Positions 16,076 through 64,000 of a stretch of 64,000 nt of DNA are shown piece by piece. The position numbers were made by a program, and so were the translations under genes. This stretch comes from Candidatus Dojkabacteria bacterium (GTDB lineage Bacteria; Patescibacteriota; Dojkabacteria; B142; WJKM01). The DNA lies in NCBI GenBank assembly GCA_014729085.1, contig WJKM01000009.1, positions 61,973-125,972 of the forward strand, read 5' to 3'. The notes below the pieces were generated by a model. The model was not told where the DNA came from and searched no databases. It saw only the letters and a program-made list of their open reading frames with translations. Positions within the stretch are counted from its first letter, which is position 1; each line of letters opens with the position of its first letter.

Positions 16076-17338
16076 TTATTTTTTATTTAATTTGCATCTA
16101 CCCAAATCTTTATGGGCTTTAACAAAAGTTCTGCTAGCAAATGCAGCATGAAGACTAATTTCTCCTGCCAGTACAGCAGTTCCAATAATTTCGGCTAATT
16201 TTTGGGTAAGATTTATTTCTTTTTCTTCTTTTTCTTTTAAATTTTTACTTATGTTGGATAGAATTATTTTTTGACATTCGTTCTGAGTTGCAAGCGTTGT
16301 TCCTCCTCCTACTGTAGCAATATTTAATGAGGGGATTCGAGTATGTATATAAAGTCCTTCCTTATTTTTTTCCATATTTAGAGATGCAAGACTTCCACCA
16401 ACTACTTGAGCTGGATCCTGACCTGTGGCAATAAATATTGCAGCAAGCATATTAGCTGCATGTGCATTGAATCCAAAGCTTCCTGCCATTTGACCACCAA
16501 GCCAAATTTTGTTTTTGTTAACCTCTAGAATATCTTCGGGATTGGATTTCAGGTATTTTTTAACTATATTTTGAGGAACTGTAACTTCTGCTTCAACGAT
16601 TCTACCTCTTCCTTTAATAGTATTGATATATGCTGGTTTTTTATCTATACACATATTCCCCGAAATTGCAATAGTTTTTATGCCTTTATATTCTGTCTCA
16701 ATCCAAGAACATATTTTTTTTGTTGCAATAACTGCCATATTCATACCCATTGCATCACCGGTATCAAATACAAACCTAATCCAGATATTTTTACCATTCG
16801 AATAAAACTCATATTCCTTTATTGTTAAATATTTGTCAGTTTGATCACCAACTTTTTTGATCTTTTTAAAGTTATCTTTAAACCATTTCTCAAATTTTGA
16901 GGCTTCTTTGATATTTTTGACTCTGAAAAGAGGAGCACGGGTAATTCCAACATATTTTGATGTGACAGTTGCACCTCCTGATTCTCTTATTATCTTTGAT
17001 CCTCTATTAACACTTGCAACTAAAGCTCCCTCTGTAGTTGCAAGGGGAATTAAATATTCCCCATTTGCATGATTGCCTTTGACAGTCATAGGACCTGCAA
17101 TGCCTATTGGCAAACATGCTCCTCCAATTACATTTTCGCAATTACGTCCATAAATTTTTTTAGGGGAGAATGGAAATTTTGAGAGTGAGTCAAGTTTAGC
17201 ATTAATAAGATCTGCAATATATTCTCTTCGAATTTCTATAGCTTTGTTATGATCAGTATATTTCTCAATTTCATAAAGTTTAATCTTATTTTGATTCAAT
17301 TGTTTAATTATATCTTTCTTCTTCATAAATATAGCCAC
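16076..17338 (-). CDS. 3-hydroxy-3-methylglutaryl-CoA reductase (class I-like)
   Basis: ENVIGGACLPIGIAGPMTVKG, DAMGMNM and GTVGG blocks. It is 420 aa. Confidence 0.85.
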   Translation of the reverse strand: MAIFMKKKDIIKQLNQNKIKLYEIEKYTDHNKAIEIRREYIADLINAKLDSLSKFPFSPKKIYGRNCENVIGGACLPIGIAGPMTVKGNHANGEYLIPLATTEGALVASVNRGSKIIRESGGATVTSKYVGITRAPLFRVKNIKEASKFEKWFKDNFKKIKKVGDQTDKYLTIKEYEFYSNGKNIWIRFVFDTGDAMGMNMAVIATKKICSWIETEYKGIKTIAISGNMCIDKKPAYINTIKGRGRIVEAEVTVPQNIVKKYLKSNPEDILEVNKNKIWLGGQMAGSFGFNAHAANMLAAIFIATGQDPAQVVGGSLASLNMEKNKEGLYIHTRIPSLNIATVGGGTTLATQNECQKIILSNISKNLKEKEEKEINLTQKLAEIIGTAVLAGEISLHAAFASRTFVKAHKDLGRCKLNKK

Positions 17339-17347
17339 TTATTTAAA

Positions 17348-18424
17348 TTATTTTTCGAAATTCCAAAAGCAATCTTTACGTTTGGTCACTTTGTGTTTTG
17401 AGAGTTGTTTTAAATTTTTTGCACCAGATAAAAACATTGCCGTTCTTAATTCATCCTTATATCCTTGAATTATTTTCATGACAGCTTCTGGTGATTGAGT
17501 TGCTGCTTTTAGGAAAGGACGGGCAGATGTAGCCATGTTAGCTCCTAATGCAATAGAGATTGCTATGTGCAATCCACTACGTACTCCTCCTCCTGCAATT
17601 ATATTTAGTCCTTTTATTTTTTTTAGGTCTAATATAGCTTCAGGTGTTGGAATACCCTGAGAACGAAATATATAACCAAGATTACCTTGGGTCCTTTTTT
17701 CTTTATGTTTTAGTCTTCTATAACCTTCAATTAATGCCCAGCTAGTTCCACCAGTTCCAGAAACATCTATCCATTTTACTCCTATTTCGTATAATCTTTT
17801 AGCTGTTTTATAATCTATACCATGACCTACTTCTTTAATAATAACTGGAATTTCCAATTTTGTTACAATTTTTTCGAATTTGTTTAATAAATTTTTGTAA
17901 TTTTTATTGCCCTCGGGTTGAATTGCTTCTTGTAGATGATTAATATGAAAAAAGATCCCGTCTGCCGAGACCTTATCAATTAGATTTTGGATATCATCGT
18001 ATTTCATACCATAGTTAAGTTGCACAATACCCAGATTAGTAAACATAGGTATATTCGGACAATGTTTTTTAACATCAAAACTAGATAAAGTTTCTGGCTT
18101 TTCATAAACTATGCGCATGGATCCAAGTCCAAAACCAATTTTTTCTTCTTCACATGCGATAGCAATATTCGTATTTATCTTTTTAGCAAGTTGACTCCCA
18201 CCTGTCATTGAAGAAATATAAAAGGGAAATGAAAGTGGAAAACCAAAGAAGGAAAAATTTGTTTCTATTTCATTCATATCAATCTCTGGCATAGAAACAT
18301 AATCCAAAAAGTACTGCGACAGATATGAAAAATGAGGTTCTACGTCCTCATGCAATACGATATCTAAGTGTTCGTTTTTCCTTTTACGAATTTTGTTCAT
18401 TTTGTATTTAATTTTATATTTCAT
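17348..18424 (-). CDS. fni: Isopentenyl-diphosphate delta-isomerase, type 2 (FMN-dependent)
   Basis: RKNEHLDIVL, SSMTGG, IIKEVGHGI, IDVSGTGGTSWA, GGVRSGL blocks are colinear with IDI-2. Confidence 0.8.
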   Translation of the reverse strand: MKYKIKYKMNKIRKRKNEHLDIVLHEDVEPHFSYLSQYFLDYVSMPEIDMNEIETNFSFFGFPLSFPFYISSMTGGSQLAKKINTNIAIACEEEKIGFGLGSMRIVYEKPETLSSFDVKKHCPNIPMFTNLGIVQLNYGMKYDDIQNLIDKVSADGIFFHINHLQEAIQPEGNKNYKNLLNKFEKIVTKLEIPVIIKEVGHGIDYKTAKRLYEIGVKWIDVSGTGGTSWALIEGYRRLKHKEKRTQGNLGYIFRSQGIPTPEAILDLKKIKGLNIIAGGGVRSGLHIAISIALGANMATSARPFLKAATQSPEAVMKIIQGYKDELRTAMFLSGAKNLKQLSKHKVTKRKDCFWNFEK

Positions 18425-49923: not shown

Positions 49924-51072
49924 TTAGTTTATAATATCTGTAATCAGACCTTTTGTGCCAAATCCTACATCGTAAAATTTGTAGTGGTAGTTTGCGGCTA
50001 ATTCTTGAAGTAAACTTTTATTTGAATGATAAGTCAACAGCGCACCTGATTTATCCTTGCCTTGTCCTCCTGCTCCAGAGATTTTACATGCACCTCCCCT
50101 AGATCTAATAATAGCAGAAATTTCCTTGACTCTATCAGATACAACACCTAATTTTTCTAATAAGATACCATTAGAGTTAATAAAATCTATATATTTTTTA
50201 GTACTGAATTTATTACTTTCAGATTCATTAATAAATTGTTCTAAGTTTGTTTGAATTGCATCAAATATTTTATTAGTTCTTCTTCTATTGAATGATTTTT
50301 CTTTTTGTACAAAATTTACCAATTCACCTGTCGATTGATCAGCGGATCCGGTATGAATAATGATTGAATTAGAAAGCATGGATTTTAGATCTGGATTTTT
50401 TATTTCTAATTGTTTTATAGAAGGTTTACTTGTTGATTTTTTTGAAAACTGTATCATTTGTCCATAAACTATTATTGCTGGATCTGCTCCGCTAGGATTC
50501 CCGTGTTGAAACTTTTCATATTCCAGTGTCAGATCAAATATTTTTTTATTATTAAAGTCGATTTCTGCAGCTTTAAGCATAGAAGAGATTAAAGAAGCTC
50601 CTAAAGAAGCAGAAAATCCGAAACCTGCCGAAAAAGGTAAATTGGAATTGAAGTTGATATTAAAAGACGGATAATACCCGAGATGTTTATCAATCTCTGT
50701 TAAGGCAATGGCAAAAATGATTTTAAAAAACCCATAATCTTCGTTAACAACTTTAGATAGTGATTGAAAATCCCCTCCACTCAAATAATTATTACGAGCT
50801 TTTTGGGCTTGTTCATATGTTTTGAATATTTCTTGTTGGGAATAAGACATATCTTTCATTTTATAAAGAGGGTTTTTATACTCCAAGAAATTAATATTTC
50901 CATTTTTGCCCGTTATTTGGGCTTCTGCAGAAGAATTTAAATTAATTGTTGTTAGTATCGCATCATACTTAGGATAGACTACTGTATGTTCACCAAATAG
51001 AATTGTTTTTCCCGGTGTAACTGCAAATGCTTTTGACATATTAAAGTAATTTATAATATTGGAAAATATCAA
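49924..51072 (-). CDS. GHMP kinase, probable phosphomevalonate kinase (could instead be a second mevalonate-kinase paralog)
   Basis: GKTILFGEHTVVY, GHMP motif NLPFSAGFGFSASLGASL, C-terminal ISGAGGQG. It is the last gene of the mevalonate operon. Confidence 0.5.
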   Translation of the reverse strand: MIFSNIINYFNMSKAFAVTPGKTILFGEHTVVYPKYDAILTTINLNSSAEAQITGKNGNINFLEYKNPLYKMKDMSYSQQEIFKTYEQAQKARNNYLSGGDFQSLSKVVNEDYGFFKIIFAIALTEIDKHLGYYPSFNINFNSNLPFSAGFGFSASLGASLISSMLKAAEIDFNNKKIFDLTLEYEKFQHGNPSGADPAIIVYGQMIQFSKKSTSKPSIKQLEIKNPDLKSMLSNSIIIHTGSADQSTGELVNFVQKEKSFNRRRTNKIFDAIQTNLEQFINESESNKFSTKKYIDFINSNGILLEKLGVVSDRVKEISAIIRSRGGACKISGAGGQGKDKSGALLTYHSNKSLLQELAANYHYKFYDVGFGTKGLITDIIN

Positions 51073-51889
51073 TCAACCCATTTTGATCAACATGGCTACC
51101 AATACAGCTGTTATCGTAACGCATAATTTTCTTCTTAAGATTTTTGTGTCCATTAGCTAGCGTAGCTTTATAACTGCATTCTGAAATGAAATCCCAGTCA
51201 TTCATTCCATCACCTACACCTAAGGTATATTGCAGGTTAAGTGGAATAACCTTTACTAGTTCCAGTAATCCAGATTTTTTACTTATATTTTTACATGTTA
51301 ATACAGCCGCCCAATAACTACCGAGTTTGGGTGCATAACTCCATTTAAAATCAATATGGTTATCATAATTTTGAATTCTTTTTTCTATATTTGTTTTATA
51401 ATCTTGAAGAGTGAATAAGCTTACTCTTACTATCTTTTCGTTGTTGATAATTTCCTGAAGATTATCAACTTTCATCGGTCCTATTCCTCTTAACTCCGTT
51501 AAAATATCTGTGAGATTCGATTGTTGTGCTGTGTCGATATAGTAATTTTTAGTTGTATTTATTTCTGTATAAATATTTGATTCTATACTATCCTTAATAA
51601 TTTTTTTTGCTATATCTCTATTTATATAATATATGCTTAATTTTTTACTTTTTGGTGAGTAAACAATTGCTCCATTATCAGATATAAATGGAATATTTTC
51701 TAGGTCTAAATATTTGATCAGTTCTTTAGTAGCTACCATAGGTTTAGCTGTACATAGAATAATCTGAATTTTGTTTTCTTGGATTATCTTTAGCATCTCT
51801 ATTACTTTTGGATTCGGTTTAGGATAATTGAATCCATTTTTACTTCCTATGAGTACACCATCTATATCAAGGATAATTGCTTGGATCAT
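51041..51889 (-). CDS. Cof-type HAD-IIB phosphatase
   Basis: Motif I LDIDGVL and motif IV GDGMND, 282 aa. It overlaps the GHMP kinase gene by 32 nt. Confidence 0.6.
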   Translation of the reverse strand: MIQAIILDIDGVLIGSKNGFNYPKPNPKVIEMLKIIQENKIQIILCTAKPMVATKELIKYLDLENIPFISDNGAIVYSPKSKKLSIYYINRDIAKKIIKDSIESNIYTEINTTKNYYIDTAQQSNLTDILTELRGIGPMKVDNLQEIINNEKIVRVSLFTLQDYKTNIEKRIQNYDNHIDFKWSYAPKLGSYWAAVLTCKNISKKSGLLELVKVIPLNLQYTLGVGDGMNDWDFISECSYKATLANGHKNLKKKIMRYDNSCIGSHVDQNGLIDIFQYYKLL

Positions 51890-51923
51890 ATTACAATATT
51901 TATAAAGTCATATATTTATTGAA

Positions 51924-52550
51924 TTATAATACATTTAGTAAATCTAAATCTTTTAAGTAAGATTCAAGCTGCTCAGGATCGTGGTACAAAAATGTATTAA
52001 TCTTTGTAAGTTTTGCATTCAAAAGATACTCTTCTTTATTATCAATCATTAAAGTTTCTGAAGGATTAATATCTAACTTTTGGATTACATATTTGTAGAC
52101 TTTGGTGCTTTGTTTAATTGCTTTTATTTGAGAGGATAAAAATATATTTGAATGAAAATATTTATGAATACCTTGAGGTGAGTTTTTATTTGTTTCTAAA
52201 TATTGAACTAAAATATTATAAGAGTTAGAAAGAACTGCTAGAAGTATTTCAGGCTTAATTTTTTTGATAATTTCAATAACATTTGGATCTGGACTTTCAA
52301 ATATTTGTAACGATTGTTTAAATAGCTGCTTATTTTCTTCGTTTATTTTTACTTTCAATTGTTTGAGAGCAAAGTTTGCATACTCATTAAAAGAAATTGT
52401 TCCCTTGCAATAATTATCATAATACTTTTGTCTATTAGTTCTAGTAATTTTTTTAAACTGTTTTATACTTTTATTGAATAAATCAGCTCCTTTTTGCCAG
52501 TTAGTTTTGAATATAACTCCTCCAAGGTCAAATATTATATTTTTTATCAT
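51924..52550 (-). CDS. HAD-IA family hydrolase
   Basis: Motif I FDLGGVIF, motif II LSNS and an IDN motif-IV variant. Confidence 0.5.
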   Translation of the reverse strand: MIKNIIFDLGGVIFKTNWQKGADLFNKSIKQFKKITRTNRQKYYDNYCKGTISFNEYANFALKQLKVKINEENKQLFKQSLQIFESPDPNVIEIIKKIKPEILLAVLSNSYNILVQYLETNKNSPQGIHKYFHSNIFLSSQIKAIKQSTKVYKYVIQKLDINPSETLMIDNKEEYLLNAKLTKINTFLYHDPEQLESYLKDLDLLNVL

Positions 52551-52551
52551 A

Positions 52552-53580
52552 TTAGAATAAATGATTATCGGTTAGATATGCACCATTACCAGGCCTATTA
52601 ATTCTTATATCTTTTACTTCTGGTACAGATTCAAGCTTGTTATTAATCTTTTGAACTGTGTCTGGTTCGCAAAGAATATGGACATCCTGCCCGGTATTAA
52701 CTGTAAAATAAGCTTTTATATTTTCTTGTTTGCGCCATTGCTTTATTAGTTTCATTATCTTCAAACTTTCTGGAGTCCAGTAAATTAATTGAGGAGTGGA
52801 ACTTAACATTATGCAGTGTAGTTCCATTGCTTCCAATTCGATGAATTCCCCAAGCTTCTGAAAGTTCTTTTCCTTTATTATTTTCTTACATAATTGATTT
52901 TTTTGTTTCATATATTTAAGCCTAGTCTCAAAAAACGGACTTGTTTGAGCATAAGTATGTCCAATAGATGTTGGTACAAGTTTTTTGTCTTTACTTACAA
53001 CCGCAATAATGTCAATTAATTCCCAGTGATTTTTAGGGAATAATTGTTTTACATATGATGATTCGCTTGTATCTCCGTCAACCCATTCGCAAAAACCTCC
53101 TAAAATAGATCTGCTAGAAGAACCTGATCCTTGGCGTGACAAAATTGTTAACTCTTTATTCTCTATATTAAGATTAGAAGCTGCAGTAGCAGCTTTTGTA
53201 AGTGCAGCGAAACCAGAAGCAGAAGAAGATAATCCGGTACTTGTAGGAAAGTTGTTTTCTGACACAACTTTTGCAAATAATTTAATTCTAGCTCTTTTTC
53301 GAATTCTATCTAAATGCTTGGAAACACGTTTTGCTTCTTTATCAATTTTTTGTCCATCAATAATGATGTCGTCGCTATCATATTTATCTGAGAATTCGAC
53401 TGTTGTGGTTGTTAATAGATTGTCAAGGGTCATTGAAATACTCCCATTAGATGGAAGTCTTAATTTTTCATCTTTTCGGCCCCAATATTTTGTAAATGCA
53501 ATATTTGAACCAGCAATTGCTGTAGATTTCATATCAAATATGTAATATATTAATTTATTAAGTTTAATGTTCTCAGACAC
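52552..53580 (-). CDS. mvaD: Diphosphomevalonate decarboxylase (MVD/PMD family)
   Basis: AGSNIAFTKYWGRKDEKLRLPSNGSISMTLD and the GHMP-like SGSSARS... blocks. Confidence 0.8.
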   Translation of the reverse strand: MSENIKLNKLIYYIFDMKSTAIAGSNIAFTKYWGRKDEKLRLPSNGSISMTLDNLLTTTTVEFSDKYDSDDIIIDGQKIDKEAKRVSKHLDRIRKRARIKLFAKVVSENNFPTSTGLSSSASGFAALTKAATAASNLNIENKELTILSRQGSGSSSRSILGGFCEWVDGDTSESSYVKQLFPKNHWELIDIIAVVSKDKKLVPTSIGHTYAQTSPFFETRLKYMKQKNQLCKKIIKEKNFQKLGEFIELEAMELHCIMLSSTPQLIYWTPESLKIMKLIKQWRKQENIKAYFTVNTGQDVHILCEPDTVQKINNKLESVPEVKDIRINRPGNGAYLTDNHLF

Positions 53581-54050
53581 TTTTTACAGGCTGGAGTTAA
53601 CTTATTAGCAATACTTTTGATTGATTCTTTGTTATAAAACTTTACTTCATCCACCTCTTTACGACTAATCATAAAAGGACCATTGTGAATTCCGGTAAAT
53701 ATTGAAATATAAGCTCTATTTTGTGGAGTATTTGTTATAAATTTTTTTGTAAAGTGTAATTCAATATCTTTTATCCCAAGTTCCTCCTTAACTTCCTTTA
53801 ATGCAGCTTCTTCATATGTTTCACCTTTTTCAACATGACCGGTGGGTGAGTTTGTATACATACCAGGGAAGGTTTTTTTGTTTGTACTTCTTTTTTGGAT
53901 TAAGAATTCACCTTTTTTATTAAGAAGACAAATATGTACTTCTCGATGTAATAATAGTTTAGATGGATTATGGCAAATGCTTCTTGGTTGAAAATCAATG
54001 ATTTTATCATTTTTATCGACAACTATTAGAGTTTCAATTTTTTGATTCAT
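53550..54050 (-). CDS. idi: Isopentenyl-diphosphate delta-isomerase, type 1 (Nudix-like)
   Basis: LHREVHICLLN..G.FLIQKRS..KKTFPGMYTNSPTGH...E.YEEAALKEVKEELGI is colinear with IDI-1 (HRAFS..., K.TFPG.WTNS.CGHP). It overlaps MVD by 31 nt. Confidence 0.7.
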   Translation of the reverse strand: MNQKIETLIVVDKNDKIIDFQPRSICHNPSKLLLHREVHICLLNKKGEFLIQKRSTNKKTFPGMYTNSPTGHVEKGETYEEAALKEVKEELGIKDIELHFTKKFITNTPQNRAYISIFTGIHNGPFMISRKEVDEVKFYNKESIKSIANKLTPACKKCLRTLNLIN

Positions 54051-54146
54051 AAGCCTGCATTAATATATTACATAAATTATAGAATAAATAGTGATTTGAA
54101 GAAATATATCTTATAGTGTATAATAATAGTATATTAAACAAATTAA

Positions 54147-54794
54147 ATGCCAAAAGAAAACTTACAAAATATTGAAAACAAAGAACCTTCTAGTGAAGAA
54201 ATTGAATATGTTGCTGTAATAAATAATGAAGGCGAAGTAGAATTCGAAGCGAGAGATAAAGCATCAAATCCTGAAAATGATCTAAAAAGGTTAATTATAG
54301 GCTTGTTAGGATTTACAAGGAATGAAGAAGGAGAAGATTGTATGATACTTCAAAGACGTTCCAGATCCAAAAAGGAATATCCTGATCATTTAACATTTGC
54401 AGCATCTGGACATATAAATCCTGAAGACTTGGTTGAAGATGAAGTTGATTTTATAGGTGCTATGGCTAGAGAACTAAATGAGGAGATGGGTATTACTACT
54501 ATACCAAGTTTAGCATTAATTTCATCTTTTGAAAGTAGAGAACAAAAAGAAGGATACCCTGATATAAGGAAAGAAATGATGTTAGGGGTTACTCAAATTG
54601 AGCTTTCTCAATTAGAAAATTTTACTACGACAGATGAAGTTAGTAGTTATGAATTAATTCCTTGGGAAAAAGTATTAACTCAGGTCATGACTGATCCAGA
54701 AGATAGGGAAGAGAAGTATAAATTTACAATTCCATTTGAGCAGTCAATTCTTCATTTAGTTGACACAGCAGATGCCTTAATGCGAGAACCTTAA
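54147..54794 (+). CDS. Nudix hydrolase (IDI-1-like fold, acidic N-terminus)
   Basis: Nudix box GHINPEDLVEDEVDFIGAMARELNEEMGI. It runs convergent to and overlaps the mevalonate kinase gene by 4 nt. Confidence 0.55.
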   Translation: MPKENLQNIENKEPSSEEIEYVAVINNEGEVEFEARDKASNPENDLKRLIIGLLGFTRNEEGEDCMILQRRSRSKKEYPDHLTFAASGHINPEDLVEDEVDFIGAMARELNEEMGITTIPSLALISSFESREQKEGYPDIRKEMMLGVTQIELSQLENFTTTDEVSSYELIPWEKVLTQVMTDPEDREEKYKFTIPFEQSILHLVDTADALMREP

Positions 54795-55762
54795 TTTTCT
54801 AATCTGACTCCTTCCACATTAGTCTTAATTTTAATTGGTTCACCTCCTGCGTTTAAGATGGCGTTTTCTATTTGATTCATCTTTGATTTCGGAGCAACAG
54901 CTATCATATTGTCTCCTATACCAGCACCGGAGAGTTTAGCACCAAAAGCTCCAGAATTACGCGCTGCATATACTAGTTTTGAAAGTATTAAACTATTTAC
55001 ACCTAGAGATTCTAAATAACCTTGATTGAAATTCATCAGATCACCAAATAATTTCAAATCATAGTCCAATAGGGCTTTTTTACCTTTCTGTACTAAATAT
55101 GAAATTGAATCAAATATAGAGTTTACTACATTCGGATATTTTTCTAATTTTTCTGCTACTTTTTCTACTATATCTGCGGTATGAGCTTTAGTTTTTGTGT
55201 AACCTATTATTAAAGGCAAGGATTCTACATCAATTTTTTTAATTATTTCTCCTCTTTTAGAGTAAAATAAAGTTTTTCCATATACTGCAGCTGCTATATC
55301 AAATCCAGAGCTTAGTCCTCGAATATCAAAGTGAGTTTTATAAGCCAAATTAAAAACTTGTCTAGGTGTAATTTTAATCCCAAATATCTCGGCCAAAGCT
55401 TTGATTGTACATACTGCAGAAGCAGAAGAGGATCCAAAACCCAATTTTGAAGAGAATTCTGAATTTGTTGAGATCGAAATTCCAGTATCAATTTTATATT
55501 CATCACTAAAGTTTTTAACCGCAGTTTCAATATACAATGCACCTTTGGGAATATCATTCTGCAAAAGTTTATTAAAAGGTTTTTTGTAATTTTTTACTTT
55601 AACATCCGGTGCGTTTAAGATTAAAATATCATCTTTAATAATGTGCATATTAAGATACAGTCTTTGTTCAACGGCTGTAACGATACATGGATGCTTGTGA
55701 ACAACTGAGTGTTCTCCCAATAACATTAATTTCCCAGGAGCAGATACTTTAATTTTTTTCAT
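54791..55762 (-). CDS. mvk: Mevalonate kinase
   Basis: SAPGKLMLLGEHSVV, GHMP motif KLGFGSSSASAV, C-terminal LSGAGIGDNMIA. Confidence 0.75.
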   Translation of the reverse strand: MKKIKVSAPGKLMLLGEHSVVHKHPCIVTAVEQRLYLNMHIIKDDILILNAPDVKVKNYKKPFNKLLQNDIPKGALYIETAVKNFSDEYKIDTGISISTNSEFSSKLGFGSSSASAVCTIKALAEIFGIKITPRQVFNLAYKTHFDIRGLSSGFDIAAAVYGKTLFYSKRGEIIKKIDVESLPLIIGYTKTKAHTADIVEKVAEKLEKYPNVVNSIFDSISYLVQKGKKALLDYDLKLFGDLMNFNQGYLESLGVNSLILSKLVYAARNSGAFGAKLSGAGIGDNMIAVAPKSKMNQIENAILNAGGEPIKIKTNVEGVRLEN

Positions 55763-58678: not shown

Positions 58679-59998
58679 TTATATCAAGTCCTTACTTTTA
58701 ATTATCTTTTCTAATTCATTTTTACCTTCTTCGGACAAGCTGTACTTTACTCGAGTGTAGGGTTTTTCAATCTTTATGAATCTTGCTAGATCAATAGGAG
58801 TTCCAATAACTACACTATCGCAATCTACTTTATTAATCGTTTCTTCTAAATCTTCCATTTGTTTATCGCTATATCCCATTGCAGGAAGAATGGTTCCAAT
58901 TTCTGGATAATGTTGATATGTTTCTTCCATTTTACCTACAACATATGGTCTTGGATCTACAAATTTAGCAACTCCAGTTCTTTCAGCTGCTACATAGCCA
59001 GCTCCAATTTTCATTTCTCCATGTGTTAAAGTTGGGCCATCTTCAATGACAAGGACATTTTTATCTTTAATTACTTCTGGATCTTCAACTTCAAGGGTAG
59101 ATTCAGCTTTTATAATTTCTGCATCAGGATTATATTTCTTCACATTATCTATGACTGTTTGTATATCTTCTTTTTTAGCAGAATCAATTTTATTAAGCAA
59201 GACTATATCTGCCATTCTTAAATTTACTTCTCCCGGATAATAACTAACTTCATGACCTGGTCTTAAAGGATCTGCTACAACTATTGTTAGATCGGATTTA
59301 TAAAATGTCATATCGTTATTACCTCCATCCCATACAATTACATCAGCTTCCTTTTCTGCCTCTCTTAATATTGCTTCATAATCGACCCCAGCATAAATAA
59401 TACTTCCCATATTAATATGGGGTTCATATTCTTCCATTTCTTCTATTGTACAATCATATTTATCTAGGTCTTCTAGTTTTTCATATCTTTGAACTCTTTG
59501 TTTTTCTAGATCTCCATAAGGCATCGGATGTCTAATTGAGACGACTTTCTTGCCAGCTTCTTTTAATATTTCCACAACTCTTCTTGTTGTTTGGCTCTTT
59601 CCGCATCCTGTTCTTACAGCAAGAATAGATATTACAGGCTTAGAACTTTTTAACATGGTTTGGTCAGATCCCAACATCGAAAATTTTGCACCTGCTGCCA
59701 TTACTTTGGAAGCAAGATGCATAACGTAGTCATAGGAAAGATCACTATATGAAAGAACACATTCATCTATATTTTCTTCTTTAATAATTTGCTCTAAGTT
59801 TTTTTCATCTTTAATCGGTACACCATCAGGATATAAGTCACCAGCTAGACTCGCTGGATACTTTCTTCCGACAATATCTGGTATTTGGGTTGCAGTGAAA
59901 GCCACAACTTCGGTGGAATCATCTTCTCTATATACAGAATTGAAATTATGGAAGTCTCTTCCAGCTGCCCCTAAAATAAGGATACGGTTTTTTTGCAT
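58679..59998 (-). CDS. Uncharacterized two-domain protein with an internal P-loop (Walker A VRTGCGKSQT)
   Basis: A 439-aa ORF with an N-terminal Rossmann-like segment ILILGAAG and a mid-protein P-loop. It may belong to the DUF1611 or cyclic-2,3-diphosphoglycerate-synthetase-like families; I cannot confirm either. Confidence 0.3.
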   Translation of the reverse strand: MQKNRILILGAAGRDFHNFNSVYREDDSTEVVAFTATQIPDIVGRKYPASLAGDLYPDGVPIKDEKNLEQIIKEENIDECVLSYSDLSYDYVMHLASKVMAAGAKFSMLGSDQTMLKSSKPVISILAVRTGCGKSQTTRRVVEILKEAGKKVVSIRHPMPYGDLEKQRVQRYEKLEDLDKYDCTIEEMEEYEPHINMGSIIYAGVDYEAILREAEKEADVIVWDGGNNDMTFYKSDLTIVVADPLRPGHEVSYYPGEVNLRMADIVLLNKIDSAKKEDIQTVIDNVKKYNPDAEIIKAESTLEVEDPEVIKDKNVLVIEDGPTLTHGEMKIGAGYVAAERTGVAKFVDPRPYVVGKMEETYQHYPEIGTILPAMGYSDKQMEDLEETINKVDCDSVVIGTPIDLARFIKIEKPYTRVKYSLSEEGKNELEKIIKSKDLI

Positions 59999-60233: not shown

Positions 60234-60260
60234 TGCAAAGTATCTATGTAGAATTCTAAG

Positions 60261-60346
60261 TGCCGGGAGCGGGACTCGAACCCGCACGCTTTATTAAGAG
60301 CAAAGGATTTTAAGTCCTTCGTGTCTACCAGTTCCACCACCCCGGC
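60261..60346 (-). tRNA. tRNA-Leu (anticodon TAA), class II
   Basis: Manual fold: acceptor GCCGGGG/CCCGGC(T), anticodon stem AAGGA/TCCTT with loop CTTAAAA, long variable arm, T-arm GCGGG-TTCGAGT-CCCGC, 86 nt, discriminator A, no CCA. Confidence 0.85.
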
Positions 60347-60385
60347 TATTAATTATCAGTGTGCAATTCTAGTTAAATAAAAAAG

Positions 60386-60462
60386 TGGAGGCCACGGTGG
60401 GATTCGAACCCACGCATAGGGGTTTTGCAGACCCCTGCCTTAACCAGCTTGGCTACGTGACC
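60386..60462 (-). tRNA. tRNA-Cys (anticodon GCA) with genomically encoded CCA
   Basis: Manual fold: acceptor GGTCACG/CGTGGCC, anticodon stem GGGGT/ACCCC with loop CTGCAAA, T-arm GTGGG-TTCGAAT-CCCAC, discriminator U followed by CCA (74 plus 3 nt). Confidence 0.85.
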
Positions 60463-60586: not shown

Positions 60587-60985
60587 TTATACTTTTGTCC
60601 ACTTTAATCCATAATGTATTATGCCATCTTTTCCATCCTCAAAATATTTTCTGAAAGTCGGAATAAAAACATCTCCCTTTTGGAGTTTATTATAGTCAAC
60701 GTCAACTATCTGAGTTGTAATTCTCTCGCCATTTTTAAATTCCAGAATACCAACAATATAAGGTTTCATATCTTCAAAACCAGCAGGTGGTGCATTGACT
60801 TCAGACCAAGTTATTAACTTTGCTTCGTTTTCAAATCTATACGCTTCGAATTCGGTATTGCTGTTTTCAGGTTCGACGAAGACTGGTGGATAATACGCTT
60901 TGTCAGTTTTTTTTGATTTACTGCCAATTAATAGATATCTACTTTTAAATTTTCTCCAAATTTTTGAGGGTGATTTTTTATGCAT
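60587..60985 (-). CDS. DUF35-like OB-fold protein (scaffold partner of thiolase/HMG-CoA synthase) lacking zinc-ribbon cysteines
   Basis: It is directly downstream of the thiolase gene. It has the yyPP motif and a C-terminal OB-fold-like region (YIVGILEF..GERITTQIVD) typical of DUF35. No Cys anywhere. Confidence 0.5.
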   Translation of the reverse strand: MHKKSPSKIWRKFKSRYLLIGSKSKKTDKAYYPPVFVEPENSNTEFEAYRFENEAKLITWSEVNAPPAGFEDMKPYIVGILEFKNGERITTQIVDVDYNKLQKGDVFIPTFRKYFEDGKDGIIHYGLKWTKV

Positions 60986-61010
60986 TTTAATTATTGTATT
61001 TAATTATTTA

Positions 61011-62153
61011 TTATATTTTTTCAAATATGTTTACAATACAGGTAGCTCCGCTACCTCCTATATTATGTGTTAGGCCATATTTCATATCTTTTTGAACTTG
61101 TCGTTTACCTGCTTTTCCGGTAAGTTGTTTAACAATTTCAACTGCTTGCTTAACTCCAGTGGCACCTACAGGATGTCCTGCTGCTTTAAGCCCTCCGGAC
61201 AGGTTTGTTGGAATTGAGCCATCCATTTGAGTATCTCCAGATTCCACAAATTGACCCCCTTTACCTTTCTCAACAAACCCAAGATCTTCATAAGCTAAAA
61301 TTTCAGCTATTGAAAAGCAGTCATGTACCTCCATAATATCAATATCTTTATTTTTAAGCTTTGATTGTTTAAATGCTCTTTCTTTAGCTTTGATTGTAGC
61401 TTCTAGAATTGTGATATCTTTTCGATCATGTAAGGCAAGGGAATCTTGAGCATGTCCAGATGCTATTAGTCTAATCTCAGATTTTTTCTTTGATGACATT
61501 ACAATTGCAGCCGCTCCATCTGAAATAGGAGAGGAATCGAAAAGTTTTAAAGGATCAGCAACAACCGGAGATCTTAAAACCTGTTCAACAGTAATCTCTT
61601 TTTGGAAATGTGCGTCTGGATTAAGAGTACCGTGTTTATGATTTTTTACAGAGCACATTGCTAGCTGTTCATGACTTGTTCCATATCTATTCATATGCTC
61701 TCTTGCGATCATTGCATAAAGTGATGGGAAAGTCACACCATAAAAAGCTTCCCATTCCTCATCGCTTGCGCCTGATAAACCTTCAGTTGCATTTTTAGTG
61801 TTTACATCGGTCATTTTTTCAACTCCTAGAATCAGGGCATTTTCTGAAGATCCACTAAGTAAATCAAGGAAACCAGCTCTAATTGCTGCAGAACCTGAGG
61901 CACAAGCTGCTTCAATATGAAACGCTGGACAATCCAGACCTAATTCTGTTGCAAATAAAGCACCTAGGTGGTCTTGTCCTGTGTAATGGGATGCTGCCAT
62001 ATTTGCAACATATAACACATCAATATCCTGAAGATTTATTTTAGAGTTTTGAACGGCATTAACTGCAGCCTCAACTCCAAGATCTCTAAAGTCTCGTTTC
62101 CAAAGTTCCCCAAATTTGGTTGTGTAGCCTCCGTTAACATATACTTGTTTCAT
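61011..62153 (-). CDS. Thiolase (acetyl-CoA C-acetyltransferase, archaeal/SCP-x-like type)
   Basis: The active-site Cys region EAACASGSAAIRAG, the C-terminal NIGGSGATCIVNI and overall 380-aa thiolase colinearity. Confidence 0.8.
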   Translation of the reverse strand: MKQVYVNGGYTTKFGELWKRDFRDLGVEAAVNAVQNSKINLQDIDVLYVANMAASHYTGQDHLGALFATELGLDCPAFHIEAACASGSAAIRAGFLDLLSGSSENALILGVEKMTDVNTKNATEGLSGASDEEWEAFYGVTFPSLYAMIAREHMNRYGTSHEQLAMCSVKNHKHGTLNPDAHFQKEITVEQVLRSPVVADPLKLFDSSPISDGAAAIVMSSKKKSEIRLIASGHAQDSLALHDRKDITILEATIKAKERAFKQSKLKNKDIDIMEVHDCFSIAEILAYEDLGFVEKGKGGQFVESGDTQMDGSIPTNLSGGLKAAGHPVGATGVKQAVEIVKQLTGKAGKRQVQKDMKYGLTHNIGGSGATCIVNIFEKI

Positions 62154-62169
62154 TTAAAACGTGTAAAAA

Positions 62170-62601
62170 TTAGATTTGGCTTGAATTTTTTTCAACTTTT
62201 ATGTCTGTTTCTTGTATTTCATCGAATTGATAGAAACCTGTTTTGGGATCTTTCTTTATTTTGAAATATCTTACCGGAATTTTTAACTCTTTTTCACAAT
62301 AATAAATCTCAGCAGCTACACCATCAGAGACTTTATCAAAAACCCATAGTTCATTAGCTAATCTGATTAAATTATCATTGACATCATATATCAATTTTCT
62401 TGAGATAGTATCCCCAAAAAAATAGTTAAAATTCATGAATGGATTAAGGGGAACTAATTTTTTTTCTAGAATAAATTTGGATATATGTTCTCTTAGAAAA
62501 AATTTTTGTTTAGAGTATGCAGGATATATTACCTTGAATTTTTTCCTTTTTCTCTTTAAATCATTTTTATTTATAATTTTTTGAATTTTTTTAATCATCA
62601 A
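62170..62601 (-). CDS. Hypothetical protein (possible nucleoside-2-deoxyribosyltransferase-like/DUF4406 fold)
   Basis: A weak pattern (LVPLNPF...ELWVFD..SDGVAAEIYYC) only. Confidence 0.25.
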   Translation of the reverse strand: MMIKKIQKIINKNDLKRKRKKFKVIYPAYSKQKFFLREHISKFILEKKLVPLNPFMNFNYFFGDTISRKLIYDVNDNLIRLANELWVFDKVSDGVAAEIYYCEKELKIPVRYFKIKKDPKTGFYQFDEIQETDIKVEKNSSQI

Positions 62602-63394
62602 TATTTTTTAATTTTTTGTTAACAAGTATGAATATACCAAATAGTAAAACTAGTCCAGAACTATTAATCACAATATATGCAGTTGATTTTCTAAGCATTG
62701 AGTTCCGTTCCGTAACATTTGAATATACCCCTGAAACGTTGTATCCTCTTGAAGATAAGCCACAATCAGTATTTACATAATTTGAGAGAAGATTTGCAGA
62801 ATTTGTAACATCTACATAATGTGCAAGTTTGGAATAATTAAAAAATGTTCCTTTTGGGAACCATTTATATACAACTTTTGTCTCTTTGTTATTTTCATTA
62901 CCTTCCTGAATATTTTCAATTTCTACTTTCTTTTCTATTTCATCTGCAGGAAATAGAATTGTACAAGAAGCTACATCGCTTTGACCATTCATATCTATAA
63001 TTGAAAGTCTTACATTATAATATCCTGGATATTTAAATTGATGGGCAAGTTTTTTTTCACCGACGAGACCTGTTCCATCATCTATTCGCCAAATATACTT
63101 TTCAACCTCATCTTTATACGTTTTGGAAATAGAGGCATCAAATTCAATTATTCTATTTTCCCAGTCTATATTTGCGACAAATCTTGCAATAGGATTGAAG
63201 GCAGCTGGCCATATTTCTGAACCCTTTATTTTAACTAAGTCTGTAATATAAGGAATTGTAGAGAGTAAAAGTGATATTTCTAGAAAAAGAAAAATACATA
63301 ACAAAAATATTTTTAGTATTTTTTTATATTTTTTCTTAAAAAAATCAGTTGTAGTATTGAATAATCTTTCTATTGTCTTTTTCTTTTTAGCCAT
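62591..63394 (-). CDS. Membrane-anchored protein with a PKD-like domain
   Basis: An N-terminal TM helix. WRIDDGTG......HQFKYPGYYNVRLSIIDMNGQSDVASCTI matches the PKD pattern WdFGDG...HtY..pG.YtVtLtVtD. Confidence 0.45.
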   Translation of the reverse strand: MAKKKKTIERLFNTTTDFFKKKYKKILKIFLLCIFLFLEISLLLSTIPYITDLVKIKGSEIWPAAFNPIARFVANIDWENRIIEFDASISKTYKDEVEKYIWRIDDGTGLVGEKKLAHQFKYPGYYNVRLSIIDMNGQSDVASCTILFPADEIEKKVEIENIQEGNENNKETKVVYKWFPKGTFFNYSKLAHYVDVTNSANLLSNYVNTDCGLSSRGYNVSGVYSNVTERNSMLRKSTAYIVINSSGLVLLFGIFILVNKKLKNIDD

Positions 63395-63418
63395 AAGTAA
63401 TAGACTTCTGAAGTAATT

Positions 63419-64000
63419 TTAATGAATTAATTTCTCCGTATGACGGACATATTCACCATAGGTAAGATAGATTTTTTTATTCAGTTGCTCATCAATATCC
63501 AGATCAAATTTTAATTTATCAATATTTTTCCGGTAACTAATAATATTTTTTGTTACCTCCAAAGCTATTGAATCACTACCCGCTCCGGAACCATAGCTGG
63601 TTACTAAGATTTTTTCTCCCGGATTAGCATTATCTAATACAGCTGCAAGCCCTAATAAGGAACAGGCAGAGTAGGTATTGCCTAGTTTTGAGACTATGAA
63701 GCCATGTTTCAGTTGTTCTTTATTTACTCCAAGATTTTTTGCAGCAACTAATGGGAATTTTCCATTAGGCATATGAAATATAACATGGTTGAAATCTGAT
63801 ATCTGCATTTTGGCTTCTTTTAATAGTTGCTTGGTAGCGCTTTTAATGTGTTTAAAATATGCAGGTTTTCCGGTAAATCTACCTCCGTGTTTAGGAAAAT
63901 GTCTATGTTCCCTTCTCCAGAAATCGGGAGTATCGGAAGTATATGAGGTAGTATGGATTATTCTTGCGATAACATCTTTATCACCAACAATAAATGCTGC
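63419..64000 (-). CDS. HMG-CoA synthase, C-terminal part (gene runs off the window end; N-terminus not in window)
   Basis: Manual extension of the reading frame upstream of the Met at 63808 shows no stops up to position 64000 (..AAFIVGDKDVIARIIHTTSYTSDTPDFWRREHRHFPKHGGRFTGKPAYF..). The C-terminal block SYGSGAGSDSIALEV and the rest are colinear with archaeal-type HMGCS/MvaS. Confidence 0.7.
   Translation of the reverse strand, partial: AAFIVGDKDVIARIIHTTSYTSDTPDFWRREHRHFPKHGGRFTGKPAYFKHIKSATKQLLKEAKMQISDFNHVIFHMPNGKFPLVAAKNLGVNKEQLKHGFIVSKLGNTYSACSLLGLAAVLDNANPGEKILVTSYGSGAGSDSIALEVTKNIISYRKNIDKLKFDLDIDEQLNKKIYLTYGEYVRHTEKLIH

What the first reader, a model, noticed from the sequence alone, without database searches (positions are those of the whole stretch)
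60587..64000. Archaeal-style HMG-CoA synthase / thiolase / DUF35 module in a bacterium-like genome, with a cysteine-less DUF35 and two unrelated genes inserted
Thiolase (61011-62153) is followed immediately by a DUF35-like OB-fold protein (60587-60985). An archaeal/MvaS-type HMGCS (63419 to the window end) lies upstream on the same strand. In archaea these three form a channeling complex in which the DUF35 zinc ribbon is structural. Here the DUF35-like protein has the yyPP motif but no cysteine at all. HMGCS is separated from thiolase by a PKD-domain membrane protein and a small hypothetical. Together with HMGR and IDI-2, this gives the organism a complete, archaeal-flavoured mevalonate route alongside bacterial cell-wall genes (MraY, LCP, LepB).
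Basis: partly seen in the sequence, partly recalled or inferred. Interest (0 to 1): 0.5.

Follow-up and report, generated by a model that had tools for sequence, protein, structure and literature searches.

The report
Zinc-free scaffold in CPR mevalonate operon
A tiny uncultured bacterium (Candidatus Dojkabacteria) makes the first mevalonate-pathway intermediate with the archaeal-type three-protein machine, which was already known for this bacterial group; the small new point is that its scaffold subunit has lost all four zinc-binding cysteines, as have many of its relatives.

Summary
On the minus strand lie HMG-CoA synthase (63419 to the window end), a PKD membrane protein, a small DUF7768 protein, a thiolase (61011-62153) and a DUF35 OB-fold protein (60587-60985). 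The gaps are 16-25 bp and one pair overlaps. The best solved-structure matches of all three enzyme subunits are the three chains of the Methanothermococcus thiolase/HMGCS/DUF35 complex (6ESQ). The catalytic motifs visible in the window are intact.

The genome is Candidatus Dojkabacteria (CPR). An archaeal-type thiolase and HMGCS with class-I HMGR in CPR was published in 2018, so the headline is known. The lower pathway here is the classical MVK/MDD type, not the archaeal one.

The DUF35 protein has no cysteine. This is a lineage trait:
- The four zinc ligands are replaced by conserved Ser, Thr/Ser, Glu and Asn/Thr in about 18 relatives.
- The ribbon region is no less conserved than in Cys-bearing relatives and is modelled confidently.
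- Other CPR lineages lost the cysteines separately or deleted the whole ribbon, while the protein stayed in the operon.
- All sampled archaeal homologues keep Cys4.

The two inserted genes are private to this lineage and unrelated to mevalonate. Verdict: a modest new variant of a known system.

The parts
63419..64000 (-). HMG-CoA synthase, archaeal type. Only the C-terminal 193 aa are in the window; the N-terminal half lies beyond base 64000.
   Evidence: The frame is open to the window end. NCBIfam PRK04262 scores 252.5 bits (cut-off 244) against 67.8 for the bacterial TIGR01835. The best PDB hit is 6esq_I, E=1.2e-53, with H238 and N270 of the catalytic tetrad aligned to H76 and N108 of the fragment. 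The tetrad's E and C lie outside the window but are conserved in orthologues L001, L002, L004 and L092.
62591..63394 (-). Inserted gene 1: a 267-aa PKD-domain protein with hydrophobic segments near the N- and C-termini. It is not part of the pathway.
   Evidence: PF18911 PKD_4, E=3e-10. No homologue was found in the 85 related loci then held. It starts 24 bp after the HMGCS stop and its stop overlaps the start of the next gene.
62170..62601 (-). Inserted gene 2: a DUF7768 protein of 143 aa (142 aa from the ATG at 62598) with a weakly supported nucleoside 2-deoxyribosyltransferase/DNPH1-like fold. It is not part of the pathway.
   Evidence: PF24963, 29.5 bits. 56 homologues occur in CPR and archaea. 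In other genomes they sit next to NUDIX/ParE genes or EF-P/FtsJ, never next to mevalonate genes. The AF2 model has pLDDT 87.7, and its top Foldseek hits are all Ndt/DNPH1/ThsB-like but weak (E>=3.8e-3, TM about 0.5).
61011..62153 (-). Acetoacetyl-CoA thiolase, archaeal/SCP2-like type, 380 aa.
   Evidence: NCBIfam PRK06064 scores 508.8 bits (cut-off 420). The Methanothermococcus equivalog scores 479.9, below its cut-off of 600. The best PDB hit is 6esq_A, E=1e-98. The catalytic Cys (EAACASGS), the HDCF motif and the GH motif are conserved in that alignment. The protein falls in a CPR clade with 195-199/200 NJ bootstrap support.
60587..60985 (-). DUF35 scaffold subunit, 132 aa, with no cysteine.
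   Evidence: PF01796, E=7.8e-10, with no PF12172 hit. A profile of the family hits 6esq_E at E=6.7e-37. The AF2 model has pLDDT 82.5 and its best Foldseek match is 6esq_E/F/G (TM 0.74-0.77, 39% identity). The protein is 100% identical to a Candidatus Dojkabacteria protein that NCBI labels 'transcriptional regulator'.
60851..60922 (-). Degenerate zinc ribbon, residues 22-45. The four former Cys ligands are now S24 (60914-60916), T27 (60905-60907), E38 (60872-60874) and N41 (60863-60865).
   Evidence: Column-by-column alignment with CxxC...CxxC homologues. In the Cys-less clade the replacements are conserved: S 15/18, T/S 17/18, E 15/18, N/T 15/18, and K23 18/18. Mean pairwise identity in the ribbon is 0.50, against 0.47 in the Cys4 group. 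Modelled pLDDT is above 90 across residues 21-60.
16076..18424 (-). HMG-CoA reductase class I (16076-17338) and type-2 IPP isomerase (17348-18424). These are the next pathway genes. In relatives they lie directly upstream of HMGCS; here they are 45 kb away.
   Evidence: tblastn with genes of L001, L002 and L004. TIGR00533 scores 432.1 bits, just under its cut-off of 441.8, against 53 for the class II model. TIGR02151 scores 357.6 bits (cut-off 281.3). HMGR-HMGCS-thiolase-DUF35 are contiguous in L001, L002, L004, L007, L010, L018 and L093.
49924..55762 (-). Lower mevalonate pathway genes: a GHMP kinase that may be phosphomevalonate kinase (49924-51072), diphosphomevalonate decarboxylase (52552-53580), an IDI-1-like Nudix protein (53550-54050) and mevalonate kinase (54791-55762). 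HAD and Nudix genes are interspersed.
   Evidence: TIGR01240 scores 273.6 bits (cut-off 171) for the decarboxylase. TIGR00549 scores 205.9 bits (cut-off 163) for the kinase at 54791-55762. The kinase at 49924-51072 passes no equivalog model. TIGR02150 scores 70.7, below its cut-off of 105.8, for the Nudix protein. L091 shows the same synteny.
60260..60462 (-). tRNA-Cys (60386-60462) and tRNA-Leu (60260-60346). They mark the downstream boundary of the gene cluster.
   Evidence: ARAGORN and Rfam. A promoter-like site (TTAACA-16-TATAAT, 11/12 matches) lies at 60576-60549 between the DUF35 gene and the tRNAs.

Best explanation
This is the entry module of the mevalonate pathway of a Candidatus Dojkabacteria (CPR) bacterium.

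The thiolase condenses two acetyl-CoA molecules to acetoacetyl-CoA. The HMG-CoA synthase adds a third to give HMG-CoA. By homology with the solved Methanothermococcus complex, the small DUF35 protein bridges the two enzymes so that the unfavourable first step is pulled by the second. HMG-CoA then passes to HMGR-I, mevalonate kinase, probably a phosphomevalonate kinase, diphosphomevalonate decarboxylase and IPP isomerase, all encoded in the same window.

The module was inherited within CPR; it was not recently borrowed from an archaeon. The DUF35 subunit has exchanged its Cys4 zinc site for a conserved Ser/Thr/Glu/Asn set (plus an invariant Lys23) while keeping the ribbon's length and predicted fold. 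It most likely still acts as the scaffold, without metal.

The PKD and DUF7768 genes are a lineage-private insertion and are probably co-transcribed with the pathway genes.

Shown: gene identities, the state of the catalytic motifs, the cysteine loss and its conservation, synteny, and the phylogenetic grouping. Inferred: complex formation, channelling, metal independence and co-transcription.
For: Identity of the three subunits:
- Their best PDB matches are the three chains of 6ESQ/6ET9: thiolase E=1e-98, HMGCS half E=1.2e-53, DUF35 profile E=6.7e-37.
- The DUF35 model's best structural match is 6esq_E/F/G, TM 0.74-0.77.
- The catalytic Cys, HDCF and GH motifs of the thiolase, and H and N of the HMGCS tetrad, are retained. 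E and C are retained in orthologues.

Pathway context:
- HMGR-I, IDI-2, MVK and MDD are in the window.
- The HMGCS-thiolase-DUF35 order is conserved in 46 of 77 informative loci from archaea and several bacterial phyla.

Inheritance within CPR:
- The nine CPR-type loci (window included) form one thiolase clade, 195/200.
- Literature already reports this for CPR, dojkabacteria included.

Cys-less DUF35 under constraint:
- About 18 homologues at 45-73% identity have intact ORFs.
- The ribbon region is as conserved as in Cys4 relatives, and the replacement residues are themselves conserved.
- The ribbon is modelled at pLDDT above 90.

Operon-like packing:
- Gaps are 24, -11, 16 and 25 bp, with no convincing internal terminator.
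Against: - No experiment shows that a Cys-less DUF35 binds the two enzymes or that a complex forms in CPR.
- AlphaFold confidence does not prove stability without zinc.
- The thiolase scores below NCBI's equivalog cut-off for the Methanothermococcus enzyme (480 against 600).
- The HMGCS N-terminal half, with the catalytic Glu and Cys, is outside the window, so this copy could not be checked.
- Relatives that deleted the ribbon altogether show that the ribbon is dispensable. That is also compatible with the ribbon here being a tolerated relic rather than a functional element.
Confidence: 0.8

Rival explanations
1. The Cys-less DUF35 is a decaying remnant. The Dojkabacteria thiolase and HMGCS work without a scaffold, and the small ORF is on its way to being lost.
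For: All four zinc ligands are gone. Other CPR lineages have deleted the ribbon entirely. According to PMC6996347, every structurally characterised DUF35 binds zinc.
Against: The ORF is intact in about 18 Cys-less homologues at 45-73% identity, with invariant residues throughout. The ribbon region is no less conserved than in Cys4 relatives, 0.50 against 0.47. Even the ribbon-deleted versions keep the N-terminal WR..RY motif, the OB fold and the position right after the thiolase. In no sampled CPR cluster is the gene missing.
Confidence: 0.12
2. The three proteins form a repurposed Friedel-Crafts C-acyltransferase of the PhlABC/MucABC kind rather than an HMG-CoA-forming complex.
For: PhlABC and MucABC are bacterial HMGS/ACAT/DUF35-type complexes. 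They appear as second-tier PDB hits for all three proteins.
Against: Scores to 6ESQ are far higher than to 5M3K: 334 against 98 bits, 185 against 89, and 130 against 64. The HDxF motif and the H and N of the tetrad, which are lost in Phl/Muc, are retained here. The rest of the mevalonate pathway is encoded nearby, and in relatives HMGR is the adjacent gene.
Confidence: 0.03
3. The module is a recent transfer from a DPANN archaeon, or the contig is archaeal or chimeric.
For: In the NJ thiolase tree, DPANN sequences and one Babeliales sequence are the nearest neighbours of the CPR clade. The window has low GC, as DPANN genomes do.
Against: GC is flat across the window, 0.30-0.35 at the module. 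Bacterial genes share the contig: LCP, MnmA, SLH-M14 and GT4. The nine CPR-type loci, at 55-70% identity, form one clade with 195/200 support and sit in bacterial contexts with Mur ligase, FtsW, L21/L27, TsaD and HU. So the module is old within CPR, as published.
Confidence: 0.05

Closest known systems
[quoted passage not shown] 2018, cited in PMC12960953 and PMC6996347)
   Same: The same three protein families appear in the same gene order. Each window protein's best solved-structure match is the corresponding chain. The thiolase Cys/HDxF/GH motifs and the HMGCS His and Asn are conserved. The DUF35 protein keeps the N-terminal helix, a ribbon-length segment and the OB fold.
   Different: The host is a CPR bacterium. 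The DUF35 subunit has no Cys4 zinc site. Two unrelated genes are inserted between HMGCS and thiolase. Complex formation here is untested.
CPR mevalonate pathway as described by Hoshino & Gaucher 2018 (PMC6107057) and Anantharaman et al. 2016 (PMC4736985)
   Same: Archaeal-type AACT and HMGS, HMGR-I, and the classical MVK/PMVK/DPMD steps in CPR, with dojkabacteria named explicitly. The CPR enzymes form their own clade near archaea.
   Different: Those papers do not mention the DUF35 subunit (0 occurrences). This genome has IDI-2, which they call sparse in CPR, plus only a sub-threshold IDI-1-like Nudix protein. HMGR/IDI are separated from HMGCS by 45 kb.
PhlABC (5M3K) and MucABC (9VBO/9VBT) bacterial Friedel-Crafts acyltransferases
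   Same: They have a tripartite HMGS-like/ACAT-like/DUF35 architecture in bacteria and are second-tier hits for all three proteins.
   Different: Phl/Muc lost the E-C-H-N tetrad and the HDxF motif but keep a zinc ribbon in DUF35. The window shows the opposite pattern: catalytic motifs kept, zinc site lost.
Cys-minus (C-) forms of zinc-ribbon ribosomal proteins (Makarova et al. 2001; from my own knowledge, not checked here)
   Same: Metal-binding cysteines are lost repeatedly and lineage-specifically from a small zinc ribbon while the protein stays functional.
   Different: It is a different protein family. For ribosomal proteins the C- forms are often paralogues used under zinc limitation. Here the Cys-less protein was the only copy found beside the thiolase in each locus examined.

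Membership tests
Archaeal-type thiolase/HMGCS/DUF35 complex (6ESQ type) | Co-directional gene cluster in the order HMGCS, thiolase, DUF35 | tested here: met
   All three are on the minus strand in that order. The order is conserved in 46 of 77 informative loci. Here a 1.25-kb two-gene insertion sits between HMGCS and thiolase.
Archaeal-type thiolase/HMGCS/DUF35 complex (6ESQ type) | Thiolase of the archaeal/SCP2-like type with catalytic Cys, GH and HDxF motifs | tested here: met
   The alignment to 6esq_A (E=1e-98) shows EAACASGS, EVHDCF and AGHPVG conserved. PRK06064 is passed. The METTL equivalog score (480) is below its cut-off of 600.
Archaeal-type thiolase/HMGCS/DUF35 complex (6ESQ type) | HMGCS with the E-C-H-N catalytic tetrad | tested here: inconclusive
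   His and Asn align to H238 and N270 of 6esq_I. Glu and Cys lie beyond the window end. They are conserved in CPR orthologues L001, L002, L004 and L092.
Archaeal-type thiolase/HMGCS/DUF35 complex (6ESQ type) | DUF35 subunit with a C-terminal OB fold | tested here: met
   PF01796, E=7.8e-10. The AF2 model matches 6esq_E at TM 0.74-0.77.
Archaeal-type thiolase/HMGCS/DUF35 complex (6ESQ type) | DUF35 subunit with a Cys4 rubredoxin-like zinc ribbon | tested here: not met
   Zero cysteines. The ligand columns hold S, T, E and N. There is no PF12172 hit. All sampled archaeal homologues have CCCC.
Archaeal-type thiolase/HMGCS/DUF35 complex (6ESQ type) | Physical hetero-oligomer with a shared CoA site that channels acetoacetyl-CoA | not testable with these tools
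   No multimer prediction or biochemistry was available.
Pfam DUF35 two-domain architecture (PF12172 + PF01796) | Both domain models hit | tested here: not met
   Only PF01796 hits. Among homologues, PF12172 is recorded only for Cys-bearing ones: P0017, P0021, P0023, P0024 and P0027.
Bacterial MvaS / thiolase II (AtoB) upper mevalonate pathway | HMGCS matches TIGR01835 and thiolase matches TIGR01930 above cut-off | tested here: not met
   TIGR01835 scores 67.8 bits against 360. TIGR01930 scores 91 bits against 240.6.
PhlABC/MucABC Friedel-Crafts acyltransferases | Loss of the HMGS tetrad and of the thiolase HDxF motif | tested here: not met
   HDCF is present. The tetrad's H and N are present. 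The criteria come from PMC12960953.
CPR-type mevalonate pathway (Hoshino & Gaucher 2018) | [quoted passage not shown] | tested here: met
   PMVK is only a candidate: the GHMP kinase at 49924-51072 passes no equivalog model. HMGR scores 432.1 bits against a cut-off of 441.8.

The most novel reading that the evidence does not exclude
In CPR bacteria the scaffold subunit of the thiolase/HMGCS complex has become metal-independent several times over. One route replaced Cys4 with a conserved polar set, Ser/Thr/Glu/Asn plus an invariant Lys (window clade, L004 clade). The other excised the ribbon outright, giving 'mini-DUF35' proteins of about 100 aa (L018, L093-L096 and at least 12 further representative clusters). 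This would define the N-terminal helix plus the OB fold as the minimal scaffold and show that the zinc ribbon, present in every solved DUF35 structure, is dispensable for channelling. An independent, similar replacement pattern (F/S/D/T) in a non-CPR bacterial lineage (L053/P0238) hints at a constrained substitution path.
Probability: 0.45. Interest if true: 0.45.

Novelty: new variant of a known kind. Interest (0 to 1): 0.3.

Why it matters
The main claim, archaeal-type mevalonate entry enzymes in a bacterium, is already central to the debate on the origin of isoprenoid synthesis. This window adds one more Dojkabacteria example.

The new point is structural. PMC6996347 (2019) states that every DUF35 protein solved up to then binds zinc. 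Here a whole bacterial radiation keeps the scaffold gene in place after losing the zinc site or the entire ribbon. If these proteins still assemble the complex, they define a smaller, metal-free scaffold, which could be useful for engineering channelled acetyl-CoA to HMG-CoA modules. They would also be another case of recurrent zinc-ribbon decay in streamlined genomes.

There is also an annotation problem. NCBI labels this protein 'transcriptional regulator', and the PF12172 model misses it, so domain-based surveys of the complex that require the zinc-ribbon model will under-count CPR.

Tried and rejected
- Exact-sequence look-ups of the window's thiolase and DUF35 protein found no contig on record. 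Context came from relatives instead.
- The third homology search, with the HMGCS fragment, did not return the full-length protein of this genome among the 120 hits listed (best identity 61%), so its catalytic Glu and Cys could not be checked.
- Vögeli et al. 2018 is not held in the library. Its content is cited second-hand from PMC12960953 and PMC6996347.
- P0022, P0029 and P0030 (97-98 aa) first looked like ribbon deletions. They are N-terminally truncated fragments or mis-called starts. True ribbon deletions were established from L018 and from representatives that keep the N-terminal WR..RY motif.
- A genome-wide 'zinc/cysteine economy' explanation was considered. The window's proteins are 1.75% Cys, and other proteins keep paired CxxC motifs (8031-8468; 37392-38033). 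There is therefore no sign of general avoidance, though 56 ORFs is a small sample.
- The first Biopython bootstrap timed out and was replaced by a numpy NJ. The trees are NJ on Kimura distances, not maximum likelihood.
- The Rfam scan found only three tRNAs.
- The promoter/terminator scan gave nothing convincing inside the cluster.

Full report
**What is in the sequence**

The window is about 30% GC throughout, and 0.30-0.35 at the locus. Five tightly packed genes lie on the minus strand:
- HMG-CoA synthase, 63419 to the window end. The frame is open to base 64000, so only the C-terminal 193 aa are visible.
- A PKD-domain protein, 62591-63394.
- A DUF7768 protein, 62170-62601.
- A thiolase, 61011-62153.
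- A 132-aa DUF35-like protein, 60587-60985.

The gaps are 24 bp, an 11-bp overlap, 16 bp and 25 bp. The consensus scan finds no convincing terminator inside the cluster. A good promoter-like site follows the DUF35 gene, ahead of tRNA-Cys and tRNA-Leu.

**Identity of the three pathway proteins**

- DUF35-like protein. It hits Pfam PF01796 (OB_ChsH2_C) at E=7.8e-10, above threshold, and gives no hit to the zinc-ribbon model PF12172.
- Thiolase. It passes NCBIfam PRK06064 (509 bits). It scores 480 bits on the Methanothermococcus acetyl-CoA acetyltransferase equivalog, below that model's cut-off of 600. The ordinary bacterial thiolase model TIGR01930 scores 91 bits.
- HMGCS fragment. It passes the archaeal-type model PRK04262 (252.5 bits) although only half of the protein is present. 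The bacterial MvaS model TIGR01835 gives 68 bits.
- Solved structures. The best hit of each protein is one chain of the same entry, 6ESQ/6ET9, the M. thermolithotrophicus thiolase/HMGCS/DUF35 complex: thiolase 1e-98, HMGCS half 1.2e-53, DUF35 family profile 6.7e-37.
- Catalytic motifs. In those alignments the thiolase keeps the catalytic Cys (EAACASGS), the HDCF motif and the GH motif. The HMGCS fragment keeps the residues aligned to H238 and N270 of the E-C-H-N tetrad. PMC12960953 lists these motifs as the ones lost in the repurposed PhlABC/MucABC acyltransferases. The Glu and Cys of the tetrad lie beyond the window; they are conserved in four CPR orthologues.

**Whose genome this is**

- The DUF35 and DUF7768 proteins are 100% identical to NCBI proteins of a Candidatus Dojkabacteria bacterium on a 198-kb contig. 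Dojkabacteria is candidate division WS6, which the literature places in the CPR.
- Bacterial genes are spread over the window:
  - an LCP (LytR_cpsA_psr) protein at 19056-20669;
  - MnmA at 34550-35608;
  - an SLH-domain M14 peptidase at 3287-4708;
  - a Glycos_transf_4 (MraY/WecA family) protein at 33085-34218.
- The rest of the pathway is in the window too:
  - class-I HMGR (16076-17338) and IDI-2 (17348-18424);
  - mevalonate kinase (54791-55762);
  - diphosphomevalonate decarboxylase (52552-53580);
  - a second GHMP kinase that may be phosphomevalonate kinase (49924-51072).
- The upper pathway is therefore archaeal-type and the lower pathway is the classical one.

**Is that new?**

No.
- Hoshino & Gaucher 2018 (PMC6107057) report that CPR carry archaeal-type AACT and HMGS, HMGR-I and the classical MVK/PMVK/DPMD steps. 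They find that these enzymes form a CPR clade next to archaea, and they name dojkabacteria.
- Anantharaman et al. 2016 (PMC4736985) had already described the pathway in Peregrinibacteria.
- My data agree. In related CPR contigs the genes form one cluster, (IDI-2)-HMGR-HMGCS-thiolase-DUF35, among Mur ligase, FtsW, L21/L27, trigger factor, ClpP, TsaD and HU genes.
- A scan of one genome per species found the HMGCS-thiolase-DUF35 order in archaea and also in Aminicenantes, Bacteroidota, Cloacimonadota, TA06, Zixibacteria and Babeliales. Thiolase lies just upstream of DUF35 in 49 of 77 informative loci, and HMGCS lies upstream of that in 46.
- In NJ trees of the thiolase, the CPR-type loci form one clade (199/200 with six loci, window included; 195/200 with nine). 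This clade is distinct from a clade of the other bacterial phyla (199/200) and sits among DPANN sequences.

**The cysteine-less DUF35**

This is the part not found in the literature I could search. DUF35 does not occur in the two papers on CPR or archaeal isoprenoid evolution that I checked for the term. No listed paper pairs DUF35 with CPR. PMC6996347 states that all structurally characterised DUF35 proteins bind a zinc ion at equivalent positions.

- The window protein has no cysteine.
- Alignment shows that the four ligand columns (CxxC, a gap of about ten residues, CxxC) hold S24, T27, E38 and N41, with the spacing preserved.
- It is a clade trait. Eighteen sequences at 45-73% identity (the window protein and 17 homologues) lack the cysteines. 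The replacements are conserved: Ser 15/18, Thr/Ser 17/18, Glu 15/18, Asn/Thr 15/18. Lys23 is invariant in this clade but variable in Cys-bearing relatives.
- The ribbon segment is not evolving faster than in the Cys4 group. Mean pairwise identity is 0.50 against 0.47, compared with 0.61 against 0.58 for the OB fold.
- An AlphaFold2 model built from this alignment has mean pLDDT 82.5. Residues 21-60 are above 90, and the strands at 19-24 and 46-51 flank the loop as described for zinc-bound DUF35 proteins.
- The model's best structural match is the DUF35 chain of 6ESQ, at TM 0.74-0.77 and 39% identity.

**Wider pattern of zinc-site loss**

- In the 80 loci from the species scan, every archaeal homologue and nearly all bacterial ones have CCCC.
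- The exceptions fall in four groups:
  - the window clade (L001, L002/L003, L006);
  - L004/L005, with G, S, S, N;
  - L053, a MAG labelled Zixibacteria, with F, S, D, T;
  - L018, a Dojkabacteria MAG whose 98-aa ORF has an in-frame deletion of the whole ribbon.
- An exhaustive profile search of 1.84 billion representatives gave 2982 hits. Of the best 150, 119 are CCCC and at least five are full-length Cys-less forms.
- About thirteen more are proteins of 93-119 aa in which the N-terminal WR..RY motif is joined directly to the OB fold.
- Two of these mini-DUF35 proteins were traced to contigs. Both sit directly after the thiolase in HMGR-HMGCS-thiolase clusters, next to a GHMP kinase and MDD, in bacterial contexts.
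- On the thiolase tree the CPR clade splits in two:
  - Subclade A is window, L092, L001 and L002, all Cys-less (191/200).
  - Subclade B contains all three states: L007 with Cys4, L004 Cys-less, and L018, L093 and L095 ribbon-deleted (195/200).
- With Cys4 as the outgroup state, this needs at least three independent losses or deletions in CPR. L053 adds one more, because its thiolase and DUF35 group with non-CPR bacteria.
- These are NJ trees, and the order inside subclade B is weakly supported (71-126/200), so the count is a minimum estimate and not a reconstruction.

**How it most likely works**

Shown:
- The enzyme pair and the scaffold homologue are present.
- The visible catalytic motifs are intact.
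- The downstream pathway is encoded.
- The Cys-less protein is under constraint.

Inferred:
- The three proteins assemble as in 6ESQ, so that HMG-CoA formation pulls the unfavourable thiolase step.
- The DUF35 subunit does this without zinc. The ribbon knuckles would be held by a polar or ionic cluster. The co-conserved K23 and E38 suggest a salt bridge, and S24, T27 and N41 suggest hydrogen bonds.
- The ribbon-deleted relatives argue that the helix plus the OB fold carry the essential contacts.

I found no sign that the genome avoids cysteine or zinc ribbons in general. I therefore do not favour a zinc-economy explanation, though the sample is small.

**The two inserted genes**

- The DUF7768 protein has 56 detectable homologues in CPR and archaea. 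The two traced to contigs lie beside NUDIX and toxin-antitoxin genes, or between EF-P and FtsJ.
- Its model (pLDDT 87.7) resembles nucleoside 2-deoxyribosyltransferase/DNPH1/ThsB-like folds, but only weakly (E>=3.8e-3, TM about 0.5).
- The PKD protein had no counterpart in the related loci searched.
- The 66%-identical relative L092 has HMGCS followed by thiolase after 30 bp, so the insertion is private to the window's lineage.
- Insertions elsewhere in the cluster are not rare. BacA sits between thiolase and DUF35 in L001, there is a 2.2-kb insert in L030, and there are others.
- In this lineage HMGR and IDI-2 have also moved 45 kb away. In L092, HMGR is not directly upstream of HMGCS either.

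**Verdict**

The headline (an archaeal-type module in a bacterium) is established knowledge for CPR, and the pathway's lower half is not archaeal.
- The cysteine-less scaffold is real and conserved. It is part of a broader, apparently undescribed tendency of CPR to strip the zinc ribbon from this subunit.
- That makes it a new variant of a known system, of moderate-to-low interest until biochemistry shows whether the complex still forms.

Noticed in passing
L018:7001-7294; L093/L094:7001-7306; L095/L096:7001-7330; proteins P0225, P0229, P0255, P0290, P0300, P0310, P0317, P0319, P0320, P0337, P0341, P0342, P0348: 'Mini-DUF35' proteins of 93-119 aa. The whole zinc ribbon is deleted in frame, and the N-terminal WR..RY motif is joined directly to the OB fold. 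In the five loci listed they still sit right after the thiolase in HMGR-HMGCS-thiolase clusters; L018 is labelled Dojkabacteria, and L093/L095 have bacterial neighbours and fall in the CPR thiolase clade.
   Followed up: partly
L053:5530-5898 (MAG labelled Zixibacteria) and representative P0238: An independent Cys-less DUF35 (F, S, D, T at the ligand columns). Its thiolase and DUF35 group with non-CPR bacteria, yet its ribbon sequence (KFKKSGKTYYPPRSVDPETGDT) resembles the CPR Cys-less forms P0013 and P0020. This could be convergence or a partial transfer; it is unresolved.
   Followed up: partly
window 53550-54050 (-) and 17348-18424 (-): A Nudix protein that overlaps the start of the diphosphomevalonate decarboxylase gene is IDI-1-like but below threshold (TIGR02150, 70.7 bits against 105.8). 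The genome also has a clear IDI-2. Hoshino & Gaucher report IDI-1 as the usual CPR form and IDI-2 as sparse.
   Followed up: partly
window 60587-60985 (-): The identical NCBI protein is named 'transcriptional regulator'. This looks like a misannotation, possibly linked to the loss of the zinc-ribbon signature.
   Followed up: yes
window 41075-45586 (+): A 1503-aa protein with 135 cysteines (9%), DUF4215 and bacterial TSP3 repeats. It lies in the only stretch of the window with raised GC (0.36-0.39) and strong GC skew. It is probably a large Cys-rich surface protein of the kind noted for Peregrinibacteria.
   Followed up: no
window 652-10610 (+): A glycogen or alpha-glucan gene cluster: a starch-synthase-like GT5/GT4, GH57, an SLH-M14 peptidase, two GH15 proteins and a glycogen debranching enzyme.
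   Followed up: no
L029, L033, L037, L043-L047, L051, L052 and about 18 more loci, mostly Methanobacteriaceae: In 28 loci the closest DUF35 homologue has no thiolase or HMGCS within 7 kb upstream. Most are Methanobacteriaceae; L011 (Aenigmatarchaeota) and L017 (Nanohalarchaeota) are exceptions. The three-gene cluster is therefore not universal in archaea.
   Followed up: no
window 58086-59998 compared with L091:1681-2469: The 73%-identical relative L091 shares the thiolase-DUF35 ... pyruvate kinase ... MVK-Nudix-Nudix-MDD synteny. It has only about 0.8 kb between DUF35 and pyruvate kinase, where the window has two tRNAs, a 439-aa cobW-like P-loop protein (58679-59998) and a 177-aa ORF with no family hit (58086-58619).
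   Followed up: no
protein P0208 (148 aa; longest contig 17.8 kb): A DUF35 homologue whose ribbon segment is replaced by a proline-rich stretch (NRPQTNQPPSFPPTSYPPLPGSP). This is another way of losing the zinc site.
   Followed up: no
window 62170-62601 (-), L086:6001-6879, L088:1367-2245: DUF7768 proteins have a conserved PLNPF motif and a C-terminal ELWVFG..SDGV..E motif, with a weak Ndt/DNPH1-like fold match. In L086-L088 the gene is followed directly by a NUDIX gene, which hints at nucleotide metabolism or a defence role.
   Followed up: partly
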